Origin: Candidatus Nomurabacteria bacterium
GTDB lineage: Bacteria; Patescibacteriota; Minisyncoccia; Phycocordibacterales; UBA9973
Assembly (NCBI GenBank): GCA_026395935.1
Contig: JAPLXT010000056.1
Coordinates: 1-43,464 of the forward strand
DNA: 43,464 nt
Direction: 5' to 3'
A program made the position numbers and the translations under genes. This document shows positions 5,781-43,275 of this stretch, piece after piece (the first letter of the stretch is position 1; every line of letters begins with the position of its first letter). The notes under the pieces are model-generated. The model was not told the DNA's origin, ran no database searches, and was given only the letters and a program-made list of their open reading frames with translations.

Positions 5781-6698
5781 TTATATTTTGTTATGTTTAA
5801 TTGATTTATAAAGGAAATATCCAATAATCATGAAAGTCAAAAGAGGGGAGACATAGTAAGGAATTTCTACTCCGAAAGAATCCATCATCATCACAATACC
5901 TAGAACGAAGATGGAATACATCGCGCCATTTTTAAGGAATACATATTTCTTTATTCTATCGATGTTTCCAATTGTAAGCTTTCTTAATACGAAAGCACCG
6001 AGACCATTACCGAGGATGATGAGAGGGACGGAGAGAGTGAAGGCGAAAGCACCGAGAACTCCATCGATAGAGAAAGTCATATCAATAATCTCAAGATAAA
6101 GAATTTTACTTATGTCACTTAGTTTGTTATCACCTGAAAGAAGTTTTTGTTCTCCTTTTTCTGCATTTTCTTTGAATCCATTAGTAATAAAGAAAGCAGT
6201 AGAACCAATGACAGCAGCAAAAGCAAGCATTGGATTTATTTTAATAGCGTACCAGACAGTGGTGGCTAGAAGTATAGAAACAAGAGCAAAGAACCAGACG
6301 CCATTGTTTTGGAAAAATCTCTCGTGATGAAGGCCGATAGTTTTCGGTTCAAGGAAAAGCCAATGAAAGAAAAGAAATATCAAGAAAATTCCACCACCTA
6401 AGAGTAGTACAGGGGCAGATTGTGCGACAGCAGCATGTATACTTGGGTCGTTCGAGAAGGCAGCAGTAAATGAGCCAATAGGACCGAGTGATGGCATGGT
6501 TGCCCAGATGATAGCCCAAGGAAGTAGTCCACGAACAACAAAAACAGCAAAGAAGAATCCATAAAGAAGGAACCATCTTCGACTCTTTTTTCCCATTGTG
6601 CCTAAAACTTCGGCATTTATAACAGCATTATCAACACTTGAAATAATTTCAAACAAACAAAGTCCCAAAACCGTGATTATGATTGTACTGAATGTCAT
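5781..6698 (-). CDS. Integral membrane protein, DUF475/TerC-superfamily-like
   Basis: Polytopic membrane protein with N-terminal 'EIISSVDNAVINAEVL' motif, recalled as typical of DUF475/TerC-like proteins. Family assignment is from memory only. Confidence 0.55.
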   Translation of the reverse strand: MTFSTIIITVLGLCLFEIISSVDNAVINAEVLGTMGKKSRRWFLLYGFFFAVFVVRGLLPWAIIWATMPSLGPIGSFTAAFSNDPSIHAAVAQSAPVLLLGGGIFLIFLFFHWLFLEPKTIGLHHERFFQNNGVWFFALVSILLATTVWYAIKINPMLAFAAVIGSTAFFITNGFKENAEKGEQKLLSGDNKLSDISKILYLEIIDMTFSIDGVLGAFAFTLSVPLIILGNGLGAFVLRKLTIGNIDRIKKYVFLKNGAMYSIFVLGIVMMMDSFGVEIPYYVSPLLTFMIIGYFLYKSIKHNKI

Positions 6699-11636: not shown

Positions 11637-11656
11637 TTGTTTAAAAAATTTGAATT

Positions 11657-11781
11657 AATATGTTTGGAAGTGAGGTGTGAATCCTCCACTGTGCCGCAAC
11701 GGTAATGCTCGAAAGAGATGAGTCCGGTCTTAACATATTGATAATCCCGAGCAGGAGAATATATTCTTATATATTAATAAA
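11657..11781 (+). promoter_or_regulatory. Cobalamin (B12) riboswitch, compact aptamer plus expression platform
   Basis: GGAAGTGAGGTGTGAATCCTCCACTGTGCCGCAACGGTAA matches the conserved cobalamin-riboswitch core (GGTG.GAATCC...CTG.GCCGCAACGGTAA). A B12-box-like GAGTCCGG follows. P1 is AATATGTT (11657-11664) / AACATATT (11732-11739). Confidence 0.8.
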
Positions 11782-11782
11782 A

Positions 11783-11808
11783 CTTCTGCTCAAGGCAGGA
11801 GCTTTTTT
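11783..11808 (+). terminator. Riboswitch-controlled intrinsic terminator
   Basis: CTTCTGC (11783-11789) / GCAGGAG (11795-11801) stem with one G.U pair, 5-nt loop, then C+TTTTTT. An upstream AGCAGGAG (11749-11756) offers an alternative partner. Confidence 0.7.
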
Positions 11809-11819
11809 AATTTATATTT

Positions 11820-12266
11820 ATGAAAAATAAAAAAATAATTATAATAGTTGGTTTAATTATATCTTTAATTATAATTTTTTTGATTATTCACCCCTCCGTC
11901 CTACGGACACCTCCCCTTAGCAGGGGAGGAATAAATACAGAGATAGTGCCTAAGGCACTATCTGAGAAAAACGTAAAAGTTTTTCTAACAGTACAAGAGA
12001 AAAAATATGAGACGGAAGTAAAAGAAAGTGGAACGGTATTTGAGGTAATGAAAAAAATACAAGATGAAAGTAGTAGTGCAAATCCATTTAGTTTTAAATA
12101 TACAGAGAATCCAAACTTAGGAGTATTTATAAATGAAATCAATGGTTTAAAAGGAGGAGGCGATGGATATTGGATTTATTATGTGAATGGGATTGAGGCT
12201 AATGTTGGTATATCAAATTATAAAATTAAGAATGGGGATATAATCTCTTGGAAATATGAAAAATAA
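11820..12266 (+). CDS. Membrane-anchored DUF4430 (transcobalamin C-domain-like) protein
   Basis: N-terminal TM anchor, then the DUF4430 pattern ..GTVFEVMKK..GVFINEINGL..GYWIYYVNG..IKNGDIISWKY. First gene downstream of the B12 riboswitch. Confidence 0.7.
   Translation: MKNKKIIIIVGLIISLIIIFLIIHPSVLRTPPLSRGGINTEIVPKALSEKNVKVFLTVQEKKYETEVKESGTVFEVMKKIQDESSSANPFSFKYTENPNLGVFINEINGLKGGGDGYWIYYVNGIEANVGISNYKIKNGDIISWKYEK
11887..11932 (+). repeat. GC-rich hairpin element, copy 1 (in frame inside the CDS)
   Basis: TTCACCCCTCCGTCCTACGGACACCTCCCCTTAGCAGGGGAGGAAT is near-identical to 43214-43257. Contains the 8-bp hairpin CCTCCCCT (11910-11917) / AGGGGAGG (11922-11929). Encodes HPSVLRTPPLSRGG. Confidence 0.8.
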
Positions 12267-18676: not shown

Positions 18677-19231
18677 ATGAAATTTAATAATAACAATAAA
18701 AAAGCCTTTACCCCCACACCTACTTTGAAGAGTAGAGCAAAGTGGGTGTGGGGGTTTAGTATTATAGAGATAATAATTTATATTGCTATTTTTACGGCAT
18801 TGTCTATTGTAGTTATTAATTCATTTATTATCGTTCTCTCATCTTTTTCTACGATTCGCAGCAATCATGACTTATTGAATTCTGGATCTATCGCAATGGA
18901 GAAGATAGCGCGTGAAATTCGTCAAGCAGATAGTATTGACCTCCTTAATTCAACAGGTGAAATTTTGCAATTAAATAGCACAGATAGTTCGTCTAACCCT
19001 GTTGTTGTTAAGTTTGCAAAAGTAGGCAATGCTTTAAATTTCTATAGAAACGGTACTCTTGTTGGTAATTTACTTACTTCTAAAGTAACCTTAATCTTCA
19101 TTTCTTTTATTCGCACCTCAAATACAAAAAGTGAAGGTGAAAAAATAAAGATGGTATTGGAATATACTCAAGGTAAAATAAATAAAACAGAGAATTTTTA
19201 TGACACTGTAATATTAAGAGGAACATATTAA
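18677..19231 (+). CDS. Prepilin-like protein with unusually long leader
   Basis: ...KWVWG|FSIIEIIIYIAIF keeps G-1/F+1/E+5, but the leader is 26 aa and contains a GC-rich palindrome. Confidence 0.65.
   Translation: MKFNNNNKKAFTPTPTLKSRAKWVWGFSIIEIIIYIAIFTALSIVVINSFIIVLSSFSTIRSNHDLLNSGSIAMEKIAREIRQADSIDLLNSTGEILQLNSTDSSSNPVVVKFAKVGNALNFYRNGTLVGNLLTSKVTLIFISFIRTSNTKSEGEKIKMVLEYTQGKINKTENFYDTVILRGTY
18711..18754 (+). repeat. GC-rich 17-bp-stem palindrome inside the prepilin leader coding region
   Basis: CCCCCACACCTACTTTG (18711-18727) pairs with CAAAGTGGGTGTGGGGG (18738-18754), with one G.U pair and a 10-nt loop. Flanked by direct TTTA (18707-18710 and 18755-18758). Confidence 0.8.
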
Positions 19232-43156: not shown

Positions 43157-43170
43157 AAAACACGAATTTT

Positions 43171-43257
43171 CCCCCTCCTGCGAAGGAGGGGGTAGGGGGA
43201 GGTGAATAATTAGTTCACCCCTCCGCCTTCGGCACCTCCCCTTAGCAGGGGAGGAAT
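43171..43257 (+). repeat. GC-rich multi-hairpin block including copy 2 of the 11887-type element
   Basis: CCCCCTCC (43171-78) / GGAGGGGG (43185-92); GGGGGAGGTGAA (43195-206) / TTCACCCCTCC (43214-24); CCTCCCCT (43235-42) / AGGGGAGG (43247-54). 43214-43257 is near-identical to 11887-11932. Confidence 0.8.
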
Positions 43258-43275
43258 TTATGATATACTAGAGAT

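What the first reader, a model, noticed from the sequence alone, without database searches (positions are those of the whole stretch)
11887..11932. GC-rich hairpin mini-element inserted in frame in a coding region and repeated intergenically 31 kb away
A ~45-nt element, TTCACCCCTCCG(N)CGG(N)CACCTCCCCTTAGCAGGGGAGGAAT, occurs inside the DUF4430 gene right after its TM anchor, translated as HPSVLRTPPLSRGG. A second copy sits in the intergenic region at 43214-43257.
The two copies differ only in the small central hairpin (GTCCTACGGA vs GCCTTCGG), a 2-nt length difference. That difference keeps the TAG in CCTTAGC out of frame in the coding copy.
Both are strongly GC-rich islands in an AT-rich genome. 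Both contain the perfect hairpin CCTCCCCT-TAGC-AGGGGAGG. In-frame palindromic insertions tolerated within proteins recall Rickettsia palindromic elements, but I do not recognise this family.
Basis: seen in the sequence. Interest (0 to 1): 0.62.

Follow-up and report, generated by a model that had tools for sequence, protein, structure and literature searches.

The report
BoxC-type triplex repeat inside a gene
The 46-base GC-rich insert in the DUF4430 gene is one unit of a dispersed DNA repeat of the long-known but unexplained BoxC/"triplex motif" kind; these repeats sit in frame inside several essential genes of this tiny bacterium, and they flank a small DUF559 nuclease gene that may be what spreads them.

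Summary
Window 11887-11932 and 43214-43257 are two copies of one element. They differ only in a mini-hairpin, and the 2-nt length difference keeps TAG out of frame in the coding copy.

It is a dispersed family, patchy within the genus: 22 model hits in this 705-kb genome, 0-28 in other genomes.

Each unit has three blocks:
- a pyrimidine block (ACCCCTCC);
- a linker, here a covarying mini-hairpin;
- a Y/R hairpin (CCTCCCCT-TAGC-AGGGGAGG).

The first block is the mirror of the hairpin arm. This three-way relation holds over about 45 subtypes (86 full matches against about 11 in permutations). Read on the G-rich strand it is a class II purine-motif intrastrand DNA triplex, the architecture of E. 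coli BoxC/PIT/TM_ECO repeats.

Units lie in frame in DUF4430, Dus, FtsK, TsaD and PolA. Close orthologues have empty sites, and other species carry other subtypes in the same loops.

Copy 2 is the right half of an inverted doublet. The same inverted arrangement brackets a DUF559 nuclease gene: on contig C7, in 17 of 29 loci across the phylum (controls 1 of 89), in 58 of 71 loci from other phyla, and at E. coli ycjD.

Best reading: a tolerated, non-autonomous repeat unit. DUF559 as its enzyme is an inference.

The parts
11887..11932 (+). Solo repeat unit (type A), in frame in the DUF4430 gene; encodes (I)HPSVLRTPPLSRGG(I)
   Evidence: Best-class hit of covariance model R1: 70.3 bits, E 1e-17.
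11890..11897 (+). Block 1, ACCCCTCC: mirror of the hairpin's 5' arm. Its complement on the bottom strand is the reverse-Hoogsteen (third-strand) block.
   Evidence: It matches the purine arm AGGGGAGG position by position in parallel register. The rule holds in 86 of 217 hairpin-strand instances, against about 11 in permutations.
11898..11908 (+). Mini-hairpin in the linker (G-TCC-TAC-GGA-C)
   Evidence: Compensatory changes among copies (TCC/GGA, CC/GG, GTC/GAC, GCT/AGC); 3 of 4 pairs change on both sides.
11910..11929 (+). Main Y/R hairpin, CCTCCCCT-TAGC-AGGGGAGG
   Evidence: 98% of cells paired; 4 of 8 pairs with changes on both sides.
11820..12266 (+). Host gene: membrane-anchored DUF4430 (PF14478) protein, 148 aa
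11941..11963 (+). Second, unrelated in-frame palindrome (AGATAG-TGCCTAAGGCA-CTATCT; encodes EIVPKALSE). It is of the same type as the palindromes that flank and sit inside a RAYT-like gene on contig C25.
   Evidence: Conserved in orthologues with compensatory changes in the stem.
11639..11794 (+). AdoCbl riboswitch upstream of the host gene (context only)
   Evidence: Rfam RF01482, 60.3 bits, above the gathering score.
43168..43206 (-). Left, inverted unit of the doublet (type B). On the + strand: hairpin CCCCCTCCT-GCGA-AGGAGGGGG (43171-43192), then the purine third block AGGGGGAGGT (43194-43203).
   Evidence: R1 hit 29.2 bits; mirror rule met.
43214..43257 (+).
   Evidence: 66.3 bits.
43168..43257 (.). 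Inverted doublet (unit - / centre GGTGAA-TAATTAG-TTCACC / unit +), inserted between the ABC permease stop and the -10 box of the next gene
   Evidence: Orthologous sites in G031, G004 and G019 are 20-30 nt long and empty. The fold has z = -5.9. The same (-)(+) arrangement brackets DUF559 genes.

Best explanation
The 46-nt segment is a solo unit of a BoxC/PIT-type intrastrand-triplex DNA repeat.

Each unit has three blocks on one strand. On the G-rich (bottom) strand they run:
- pyrimidine arm, loop, purine arm: an ordinary hairpin;
- a linker, which in this subtype is a mini-hairpin;
- a G-rich third block that matches the purine arm antiparallel, as G.GC, A.AT or T.AT triplets.

This is a class II purine-motif triple helix. 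It can form only in single-stranded DNA, for example during replication or repair.

The family behaves as selfish, non-autonomous DNA and occurs in three forms:
- two inverted units around a roughly 110-aa DUF559 (Vsr-like PD-(D/E)xK) nuclease gene;
- inverted doublets without the gene, such as window 43168-43257;
- solo units, such as 11887-11932.

The copy in the DUF4430 gene is a passenger. It lies in the linker behind the membrane anchor, is in frame and has no stop codon. It is therefore translated as 14-15 extra residues and tolerated.

Shown here:
- the family, its patchy distribution and the three-way covariation;
- in-frame copies in several genes;
- empty sites in orthologues;
- the close, oriented association with DUF559 genes.

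Inferred, not shown:
- that the triplex actually forms in the cell;
- that DUF559 binds or cuts the units and spreads them;
- the transposition or copying chemistry.

The confidence of 0.72 is for the identity of the element (a BoxC-type triplex repeat unit, a tolerated passenger in frame). I put the DUF559-as-partner step alone at about 0.5.
For: Family and structure
- About 20 copies in the genome by pattern and nhmmer.
- Covariance model R1 gives 22 hits in this genome and 28, 7 and 6 in three congeners. It gives none in 19 of the 36 other same-genus genomes.
- Both hairpins covary: 7 of 12 pairs change on both sides; covariation score 0.337 against 0.107 in shuffles, 0 of 500 reaching it.

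Mirror rule
- 86 full-length matches among 217 hairpin-strand instances. The direct-repeat control gives 16; permuted arms give a mean of 11 and a maximum of 24. About 45 distinct block/arm combinations occur, including three-way changes such as CCCTTCC/CCTTCCC/GGGAAGG.
- Units were also placed by their G positions alone. Opposite A-T pairs the top strand then has T (52) or A (59) and rarely C or G (11).
- A in that position is not canonical for a pyrimidine motif, but its complement T is canonical for the purine motif. This points to the G-rich DNA strand.

Match to the published family
- Same architecture, inverted A+B pairs and patchy distribution as TM_ECO/BoxC (Holder et al. 2015, PMC4666352).

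Insertion
- Dus orthologues 82-84% identical lack the unit (FSGKVPTIKEKLKV against FS-RRPLRSNDHLPLAGEE-IRNKLKV). G031 has a doublet of other subtypes in the same loop.
- The intergenic site is empty in G031, G004 and G019.
- DUF4430 orthologues carry different subtypes, and in G066 the opposite orientation, at the same spot. Distant orthologues carry none.
- Independent metagenome contigs carry the identical in-frame unit, so it is not an assembly artefact.

DUF559 link
- The copy on contig C7 is flanked by the same type A/A2 units as the window's.
- 7 of 8 relatives with an intact DUF559 gene have units, against 11 of 53 without (Fisher p = 5e-4).
- 17 of 29 DUF559 loci across the phylum have a perfect unit within 400 nt, against 1 of 89 control loci.
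- 58 of 71 YcjD-like loci from other phyla have one, against 9 of 71 in the outer flanks.
- The layout is oriented. The nearest upstream unit is on the - strand in 32 of 44 cases. The nearest downstream unit is on the + strand in 48 of 63 and often overlaps the last 25-45 nt of the ORF.
- E. coli MG1655 has 23 TM_ECO motifs and one DUF559 gene (ycjD), with a TM_ECO 168 nt after its stop.
Against: - No target-site duplication or clean insertion boundary was found. At the Dus site the unit replaces about 15 nt rather than simply adding.
- Holder et al. could not detect the TM_ECO triplex in vivo by DMS footprinting, and double-stranded TM_ECO stayed duplex in vitro.
- A roughly 110-aa nuclease alone is not a known transposase.
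- G025 has 28 units but only a DUF559 domain fused into a 937-aa ORF, flanked by a different subtype.
- G033 has a DUF559 gene without detected units.
- The family-2 doublets of this genome have no DUF559 gene between them in the 93%-complete assembly.
- RAYT-like gene number also correlates with unit number within the genus (Spearman 0.48). General richness in mobile DNA could therefore contribute to the genome-level correlation, though not to the adjacency.
- The high identity of the unit among DUF4430 orthologues is not specific evidence of constraint. The whole first 150 nt of the gene is near-identical.
Confidence: 0.72

Rival explanations
1. The units are REP/REPIN elements mobilised by a RAYT (Y1 HUH) transposase acting on single-stranded hairpins.
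For: The genome has two RAYT-like genes: PF01797 above cut-off and weak NF047646 matches. Doublets resemble REPINs. RAYT-like gene number correlates weakly with unit number in the genus.
Against: Each RAYT-like gene is flanked by its own, different palindrome: CTCCGCTAGGA..TCCTAGCGGAG on C38 and CAGATAG..CTATCTG on C25. No GTAG or CGTC tag stands next to the units. RAYT-like genes are present in 46 of 61 relatives, including many with no units, for example G004 with five. No unit was found next to a RAYT locus; the control set, which included the RAYT loci L138-L149, gave 1 of 89. REPs have no third mirror block.
Confidence: 0.07
2. The element is a functional RNA structure, for example an mRNA stabiliser, a terminator or translation-control hairpin, or an SD/anti-SD sequestering element. 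The coding copy would be kept for regulation.
For: Stable hairpins. GGAGG and CCTCC resemble Shine-Dalgarno and anti-Shine-Dalgarno sequences. Several intergenic copies lie just upstream of genes. Solo coding copies are mostly in the sense orientation.
Against: No Rfam family matches. No U-run follows the hairpin on either strand. Units occur in both orientations relative to genes and in all three reading frames. The third block has A opposite A-T pairs in about half of cases. That fits only the purine motif, which is reported not to form in RNA (Holder et al.). TM_ECO/PIT elements showed no promoter or terminator activity.
Confidence: 0.07
3. The units are not mobile. They are host-maintained DNA structural sites (replication pausing, recombination or instability hot spots, protein-binding sites) that arise and are kept locally. 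DUF559 would be a repair nuclease that deals with them.
For: TM_ECO loci show raised local variability. The DUF4430 gene is mosaic, with divergence starting right after the palindromes. The same loops and intergenic sites collect several unrelated palindrome families.
Against: Near-identical units at unrelated loci and about 45 co-varying subtypes imply copying from templates, not local origin. Copy number ranges from 0 to 28 among congeners. The ORF of DUF559 runs into the downstream unit, as a transposase ORF runs into its terminal repeat.
Confidence: 0.12
4. The segment is an ancestral, selected linker peptide of the DUF4430 protein, and the intergenic look-alike is a coincidence.
For: The peptide HPSVLRTPPLSRGG is identical in orthologues that are otherwise 66-81% identical. 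A PLS(R/K)G-like motif recurs in more distant orthologues.
Against: Dozens of copies lie at unrelated loci, in three reading frames giving different peptides: HLPLAGEE in Dus and PLRSG in FtsK. Other orthologues have different subtypes, the opposite orientation or no element. The recurring PLS motif is what variant units encode.
Confidence: 0.02

Closest known systems
BoxC / PIT (potential intrastrand triplex) elements / TM_ECO triplex motifs of E. coli and other bacteria (Hoyne & Maher 2000; Holder et al. 2015, NAR 43:10126, PMC4666352)
   Same: - Three-block unit on one strand (Y arm, loop, R arm, loop, G-rich reverse-Hoogsteen block): a class II purine motif, G/C-rich.
- Uses G.GC, A.AT and T.AT triplets.
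- Dispersed in tens of copies and very patchy among close relatives.
- Inverted pairs combine two different subtypes.
- No transposase nearby.
- One copy sits next to the single DUF559 gene, ycjD.
   Different: - The sequence differs: CCTCCCCT/AGGGGAGG, an 8-nt stem, against CCCTCNCCC/GGGNGAGGG.
- In the window's subtype the second loop is 10-14 nt and forms its own covarying mini-hairpin.
- The host is an AT-rich, 0.7-Mb Patescibacteria genome.
- TM_ECO is always intergenic in MG1655, whereas about a third of perfect units here lie in frame inside genes.
Rickettsia palindromic elements (RPE)
   Same: Small palindromic repeats that insert in frame into protein-coding genes of a reduced genome and are translated as extra peptide segments in tolerant loops.
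   Different: RPEs are about 100-150 bp, are specific to Rickettsia sequence families and have no reported mirror or third-strand block or associated nuclease gene. The units here are about 40-46 nt (doublets about 90-100 nt). There is no sequence relation; this is a functional analogy only.
REP / REPIN elements with their RAYT transposase
   Same: A single-copy enzyme gene bracketed by inverted copies of the very repeat that is dispersed in the genome. Gene-less inverted doublets and solo units also occur, and the folded single-stranded DNA is the presumed substrate.
   Different: The bracketed gene is a DUF559 PD-(D/E)xK nuclease, not a Y1 HUH transposase. There is no GTAG tag. The units have a third mirror block. 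The genome's RAYT-like genes carry other palindromes.
Vsr-like homing endonucleases (e.g. I-Bth0305I, PDB 3r3p), grouped with VSR/DUF559 by Steczkiewicz et al. 2012 (PMC3424549)
   Same: A small Vsr-fold nuclease acting as a selfish-DNA enzyme. This genome's DUF559 protein matches PDB 3HRL at E = 5e-22.
   Different: Homing endonucleases sit in introns or inteins and home to allelic sites. Here the gene is free-standing between triplex repeats, and its derivatives are dispersed.

Membership tests
BoxC / PIT / TM intrastrand-triplex repeats | Three consecutive blocks on one strand: a pyrimidine arm and a purine arm that pair as a hairpin, plus a third block matching the purine arm antiparallel by G.GC, A.AT or T.AT (class II) | tested here: met
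   Window units: AGGGGAGG against block ACCCCTCC (bottom strand GGAGGGGT), 8 of 8 positions. Family-wide: 86 full matches against 16 (direct control) and 11 (permutations). Base usage opposite A-T pairs is T or A in 111 of 122 cases.
BoxC / PIT / TM intrastrand-triplex repeats | Literal TM_ECO pattern CCCTCNCCC-N3-6-GGGNGAGGG-N3-GGGNGAGGG (9-nt stems, 3-nt second loop) | tested here: not met
   The stem here is CCTCCCCT (8 nt). The second loop is 10-14 nt with a mini-hairpin. Other subtypes in the same genome have 2-5-nt linkers and 9-10-nt stems. This is the same architecture but a different sequence family.
BoxC / PIT / TM intrastrand-triplex repeats | Dispersed, multi-copy, with copy number very different between close relatives | tested here: met
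   22 hits in this genome; 0 to 28 among 36 other genomes of the genus.
BoxC / PIT / TM intrastrand-triplex repeats | Inverted pairs made of two different subtypes (type A + type B) | tested here: met
   Window 43168-43257 is type B(-) plus type A(+). C32 and C40 doublets pair types C and A.
BoxC / PIT / TM intrastrand-triplex repeats | Strictly intergenic location (as in E. coli MG1655) | tested here: not met
   In-frame copies lie in DUF4430, Dus, FtsK, TsaD and PolA in this genome, and in UvrC and PolA in relatives.
BoxC / PIT / TM intrastrand-triplex repeats | The isolated G-rich strand folds into a stable triplex in vitro (CD, NMR) | not testable with these tools
   This needs spectroscopy of the oligonucleotide. 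ViennaRNA models hairpins only.
Rickettsia palindromic elements | Sequence membership in RPE families; about 100-150-bp palindromes of Rickettsia | tested here: not met
   The unit is 46 nt, the host is Patescibacteria-like, and the architecture differs. Only the in-frame behaviour is shared.
REP / REPIN-RAYT | The repeats flank the genome's RAYT gene and carry a conserved 5' GTAG or CGTC tag | tested here: not met
   Both RAYT-like genes are flanked by other palindromes. No tag stands beside the units.
MITE (transposase-derived, with TIR and TSD) | Terminal inverted repeats plus a target-site duplication; derived from a longer element that encodes the enzyme | tested here: inconclusive
   Doublets have the same (-)(+) arrangement as the units around DUF559 genes. 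No target-site duplication is visible at the filled-versus-empty comparisons.

The most novel reading that the evidence does not exclude
An intrastrand DNA triple helix is itself the selected, recognised structure of a widespread class of bacterial selfish repeats. The small DUF559 nuclease, whose gene sits between two inverted units from Patescibacteria to E. coli ycjD, is the enzyme that recognises the folded units and propagates them. In reduced genomes these units are driven even into essential genes, where only in-frame, stop-free insertions in loops survive. This would explain the BoxC/PIT repeats, unexplained since the 1990s, and would assign a function to DUF559.
Probability: 0.45. Interest if true: 0.85.

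Novelty: new variant of a known kind. Interest (0 to 1): 0.62.

Why it matters
BoxC/PIT/TM repeats have been known since the 1990s, with no function, partner enzyme or mechanism of spread. This locus adds three things.

1. Natural covariation. About 45 subtypes change all three blocks together, and the A/T usage fits only the purine-motif DNA triplex. That is evolutionary evidence that the triple-helix geometry, not merely a hairpin, is under selection. In vitro work could not show this.

2. Insertion into essential genes. These repeats can live in frame inside essential genes of a minimal genome. Insertions recur independently in the same protein loops in different species. This matters for annotation, for protein-family alignments of Patescibacteria, and for understanding how such genomes tolerate selfish DNA.

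3. A candidate partner. It supports, in a new phylum and with proper controls, the oriented association of these repeats with DUF559 nuclease genes. I did not find this association in print in the library searched. It can be tested directly in E. coli K-12 with ycjD.

Tried and rejected
- Rfam. At gathering thresholds on the whole window it finds only the AdoCbl riboswitch and nothing at the units. At E <= 1 on the long-variant region of L054 it finds nothing.
- RAYT as mobiliser. Rejected because both RAYT-like genes carry their own different palindromes and RAYT presence does not track the units.
- Terminator reading. Rejected because no T/U run follows the hairpin on either strand.
- Target-site duplication. 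Looked for at Dus, at the intergenic site and at the DUF4430 site; none found.
- Constraint on the unit. I tried to show stronger conservation of the unit than of its flanks by aligning four orthologous genes. This was uninformative: the whole first 150 nt, including the AT-rich anchor-coding part, is near-identical, and divergence begins only after the palindromes.
- Triplex as bracket pairs in the count of structure pairs. Not possible for a parallel register, so a custom script was used instead.
- Literature. Searches for a prior description in CPR/Patescibacteria or for a DUF559-BoxC link found none. The nearest item is DUF559 being enriched among predicted programmed-inversion targets (PMC9881135).
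Full report
**1. Observation**

The window is contig C91:1-43464 of a 705-kb, 129-contig, 35% G+C genome. Protein hits carry names such as "Candidatus Paceibacterota" and "Nomurabacteria", so the organism belongs to the Patescibacteria/CPR.

The sequence at 11887-11932 is TTCACCCCTCCGTCCTACGGACACCTCCCCTTAGCAGGGGAGGAAT. The sequence at 43214-43257 is the same apart from the central mini-hairpin, GTCCTACGGAC against GCCTTCGGC. The shared 22-mer occurs twice in the window, and none is expected by chance.

Copy 1 lies in ORF 11820..12266, a 148-aa DUF4430 protein, just after the N-terminal hydrophobic anchor. It reads IHPSVLRTPPLSRGGI. Read in the same frame, the shorter mini-hairpin of copy 2 would give CCT TAG, an in-frame stop.

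An AdoCbl riboswitch (11639-11794) precedes the gene.

**2. A family, not a pair**

Pattern and nhmmer searches of the whole genome find about 10 canonical and about 10 variant copies. A covariance model built from 14 copies gives:
- 22 hits in this genome;
- 28, 7 and 6 hits in three other species of the genus;
- none in 19 of the 36 other same-genus genomes;
- a few hits in two other genera of the order.

Both hairpins show compensatory changes. Seven of 12 pairs change on both sides, and the covariation score is 0.337 against 0.107 in shuffles (0 of 500 reach it). Slid controls collapse.

Many copies form head-to-head inverted doublets. Its left half is a related but different subtype.

**3. 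The third block**

Upstream of the main hairpin every unit has a conserved pyrimidine block, here ACCCCTCC. It is neither a direct nor an inverted repeat of the hairpin arm. It is the mirror of that arm: it matches the purine arm AGGGGAGG position by position in the same 5'-to-3' order.

When the hairpin changes, this block changes with it. Examples (block | purine arm):
- CCCCTCC | GGGGAGG
- CCCTTCC | GGGAAGG
- CCCCCTC | GGGGGAG
- CCTCCCCC | GGAGGGGG
- AACCTCTCCT | AAGGAGAGGA
- AACCTCTCTC | AAGGAGAGAG

I scanned all Y/R hairpins in the genome and the fetched loci.
- 86 of 217 hairpin-strand instances have a full-length mirror block within 22 nt.
- The direct-repeat control gives 16.
- Permuting the arms among units gives a mean of 11 and a maximum of 24.
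- About 45 distinct block/arm combinations occur.

No duplication or inversion process produces mirror repeats, so this relation must be maintained by selection.

I also placed units by their G positions alone and looked at the base opposite A-T pairs. On the top strand it is T (52) or A (59) and rarely C or G (11). A is almost universal at the loop-proximal pair.
- A in that position is not a canonical pyrimidine-motif triplet.
- On the complementary G-rich strand, the same positions read A.AT and T.AT beside G.GC. That is exactly the triplet set of the antiparallel purine motif.
- Subtype A2 (CCCCTCA | GGGGAGC) places a T opposite the inverted C-G pair. From my own recollection, a T.CG triplet is tolerated in that motif.

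The linker geometry also fits a fold-back: the third block begins at the base of the hairpin.

I therefore read the unit as a class II intrastrand purine-motif triplex on the bottom DNA strand. According to the literature cited, this motif does not form in RNA.

**4. What is known**

This is the architecture of BoxC / PIT elements / TM_ECO (Holder et al. 2015, PMC4666352). The published properties are:
- the pattern CCCTCNCCC-N3-6-GGGNGAGGG-N3-GGGNGAGGG;
- 23 copies in MG1655, all intergenic;
- five inverted pairs, always type A with type B;
- very different copy numbers among strains;
- a stable triplex in vitro for the isolated strand, but none detected in vivo;
- no promoter or terminator activity;
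- no mobility gene found nearby.

I reproduced the 23 copies.

The units here share the architecture, the A+B pairing and the patchiness. They differ in four ways:
- the sequence;
- the mini-hairpin that fills the second loop in the window's subtype;
- the host;
- their presence inside genes.

I file them as a new variant of that kind, not as TM_ECO itself.

**5. Insertion in genes**

In this genome, units lie in frame in the following genes.

| Gene | Location | Frame and peptide |
|---|---|---|
| DUF4430 | window 11887-11932 | IHPSVLRTPPLSRGGI |
| tRNA-dihydrouridine synthase (Dus) | C107:9994-10038 | a different frame, RPLRSNDHLPLAGEE |
| FtsK linker | C40:3420-3463 | in frame |
| TsaD | C10, about 6469-6553 | a whole doublet, about 35 residues |
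| DNA polymerase I | C122:1112-1203 | a doublet |
| A large repeat protein | C89 | in frame |

In relatives, units lie in UvrC and PolA. About a third of the 89 perfect units lie in long ORFs, in both orientations and in all frames.

Dus:
- Orthologues 82-84% identical read FSGKVPTIKEKLKV where this genome reads FS-RRPLRSNDHLPLAGEE-IRNKLKV.
- G031 has a full doublet of other subtypes in the same loop.
- G021 and G011 have other GC-rich palindromes there.

DUF4430:
- The closest clade keeps the identical unit.
- G015 has it with an extra insert of about 75 nt.
- G066 and allies have a type B unit in the opposite orientation at the same place.
- Others have short subtypes or a second copy of an unrelated palindrome.
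- Distant orthologues have AT-rich linkers with no element.

The intergenic doublet site is 20-30 nt long and empty in G031, G004 and G019. In other species it is occupied by other palindrome families.

Independent contigs from ENA, JGI and Logan carry the identical in-frame unit, which excludes an assembly artefact.

I found no target-site duplication. At the Dus site the unit replaces about 15 nt.

**6. The DUF559 link**

On contig C7 a 113-aa DUF559 protein gene is flanked by type A/A2 units on both sides. The protein matches NCBIfam PRK09767 (the YcjD family) and PDB 3HRL at E = 5e-22. The motifs DF, ELDG.QH and RFWN.E are conserved with E. coli YcjD. Type A is the window's subtype.

Genome-level association among 61 relatives:
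- 7 of 8 genomes with an intact DUF559 gene have units, against 11 of 53 without (Fisher p = 5e-4; p = 1.4e-3 without this genome).
- In 7 of the 8 the gene is flanked by units, and the subtype differs from genome to genome.

Locus-level association:

| Sample | Loci with a unit within 400 nt of the gene | Control |
|---|---|---|
| 401 genomes of the phylum | 17 of 29 (perfect unit) | 1 of 89 control loci |
| YcjD relatives in named bacteria of other phyla | 58 of 71 full-length loci | 9 of 71 have any unit in the outer 2.2 kb |

The second sample includes Enterobacter, Klebsiella, Stenotrophomonas, alphaproteobacteria, Melainabacteria, Elusimicrobiota and others.

The layout is oriented:
- The nearest upstream unit is on the - strand in 32 of 44 cases.
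- The nearest downstream unit is on the + strand in 48 of 63 cases.
- The downstream unit often overlaps the last 25-45 nt of the ORF.

This is the arrangement of a gene-less doublet with the gene placed in its centre.

MG1655 has exactly one DUF559 gene, ycjD. A TM_ECO lies 168 nt after its stop. A degenerate BoxC-like stretch stands at the stop, and a duplicated fragment of the ycjD 3' end lies between the two. By my estimate, the chance of such proximity is about 0.004.

Literature bearing on the link:
- Holder et al. state that they never found mobility functions near TM_ECO.
- I found no paper linking DUF559 or ycjD with BoxC.
- DUF559 proteins are listed as enriched among predicted programmed-inversion targets (PMC9881135). 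That fits genes flanked by inverted repeats.
- DUF559 is grouped with Vsr and with a homing endonuclease (PMC3424549).

After reaching this result I consulted the scan's earlier notes. Several agents had reached the same DUF559-BoxC reading on other genomes. I treat those as agreeing leads, not as evidence.

**7. Mechanism and its rivals**

Best reading: the unit at 11887-11932 is a non-autonomous half-element of a selfish repeat. The gene-bearing form of that repeat is the DUF559 cassette.

It landed in, or was copied into, the linker behind the membrane anchor. It persists there because it is in frame, has no stop codon and sits in a tolerant segment.

The triplex-compatible geometry is selected at the level of the repeat's propagation. 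Most simply, the folded G-rich single strand is what the partner enzyme recognises, or what triggers copying at a stalled replication fork.

Not shown: triplex formation in cells, DUF559 activity on the units, and the copying chemistry.

Rivals, with the evidence given in the Rival explanations section:
- RAYT/REPIN;
- a functional RNA;
- a non-mobile structural DNA site;
- an ancestral linker.

The RAYT reading fails because the two RAYT-like genes carry their own palindromes. One of those palindrome types also sits in frame in this same DUF4430 gene, at 11941-11963.

**8. Verdict**

- The interpretation (an RPE-like in-frame mini-element) is supported and sharpened.
- Identity: a BoxC/PIT-type intrastrand-triplex repeat, a new variant with a mini-hairpin linker, in a CPR host and able to reside in coding sequence.
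- The DUF559 association is strong and oriented, but its meaning is inferred.

Noticed in passing
window 11941-11963: A second, unrelated palindrome (AGATAG-TGCCTAAGGCA-CTATCT, encoding EIVPKALSE) lies in frame 9 nt after the unit. Its only other copies in the genome flank, and sit inside, a RAYT-like gene on contig C25. It is conserved in most DUF4430 orthologues with compensatory stem changes. Some orthologues have two tandem copies (QIGVKPLS plus QIVPKALS).
   Followed up: partly
L001 (G000:C38) 541-591 and 1247-1275; L002 (G000:C25) 1250-1280 and 1960-1990: Two RAYT-like Y1 genes (218 and 222 aa). Each is bracketed by its own palindrome (CTCCGCTAGGA..TCCTAGCGGAG; CCAGATAG..CTATCTGG). This is the classic RAYT/REP layout, but with very few dispersed copies.
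   Followed up: partly
L054 (G015:C8) about 1790-1930; own genome C39:2375-2495: A long variant of the unit. An insert of about 75 nt with several small hairpins splits the 5' arm of the main hairpin. In G015 it is translated in frame in the DUF4430 orthologue (YRSSTPFAFRVQDSQGLASGSLIPDS). No Rfam match.
   Followed up: partly
L109 (G022:C1, Dus gene): The Dus gene of G022 carries an insert of about 130 nt at the same loop. It contains stop codons and shifts the frame, and the downstream part of the gene continues in another frame. It could be a pseudogene, an intervening sequence or an assembly error.
   Followed up: no
L089 (G021), L094 (G011), L103 (G063): Dus genes: Other GC-rich palindromes that are not triplex units are inserted in frame in the same Dus loop or 30 residues further on. 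This loop is a general landing site in the genus.
   Followed up: no
window 11820-11970 compared with L113, L115, L117: The first 150 nt or so of the DUF4430 gene (anchor plus unit) are nearly identical among four orthologues whose 3' parts diverge to about 65%. Divergence starts at the palindromes. The pattern is mosaic and suggests recombination there.
   Followed up: partly
L119, L121, L127, L132 (intergenic site orthologous to window 43157-43275): The same intergenic site holds different palindromic repeat families in different species: pairs such as CAGACGTTGGACGTCTG in G064, others in G015 and G016, and the CAGATAG..CTATCTG type in G062.
   Followed up: no
window 18707-18758: A 17-bp-stem GC-rich palindrome (ACCCCCACACCTACTTTG..CAAAGTGGGTGTGGGGGT) lies in frame in a prepilin leader. 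It is a different family without a mirror block. An earlier first-reader note had already flagged it.
   Followed up: no
L162 (E. coli MG1655 1351205-1351420): Downstream of ycjD, in order: a degenerate BoxC-like stretch at the stop codon, a duplicated fragment of the ycjD 3' end, then a canonical TM_ECO. This looks like a rearranged element end.
   Followed up: partly
L152 (G025:C1:295935-296231): In G025, the genome richest in units, the only strong DUF559 match is the C-terminal domain of a 937-aa ORF. It is flanked by a different, short subtype (CCCATCCC | GGGAAGGG).
   Followed up: no
own genome C32:217-302, C40:33-118 and 1737-1824, C89:1893-1975, C90:4510-4592, C113:4877-4962, C116:2524-2609: A second abundant subfamily of doublets without a mini-hairpin. 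Arms are like TCCTCTCCTT/AAGGAGAGGA and the centre is GGTTC-TTAATTAATTA-GGAACC. They obey the mirror rule at 10 of 10 positions. No DUF559 gene lies between them in this assembly.
   Followed up: partly
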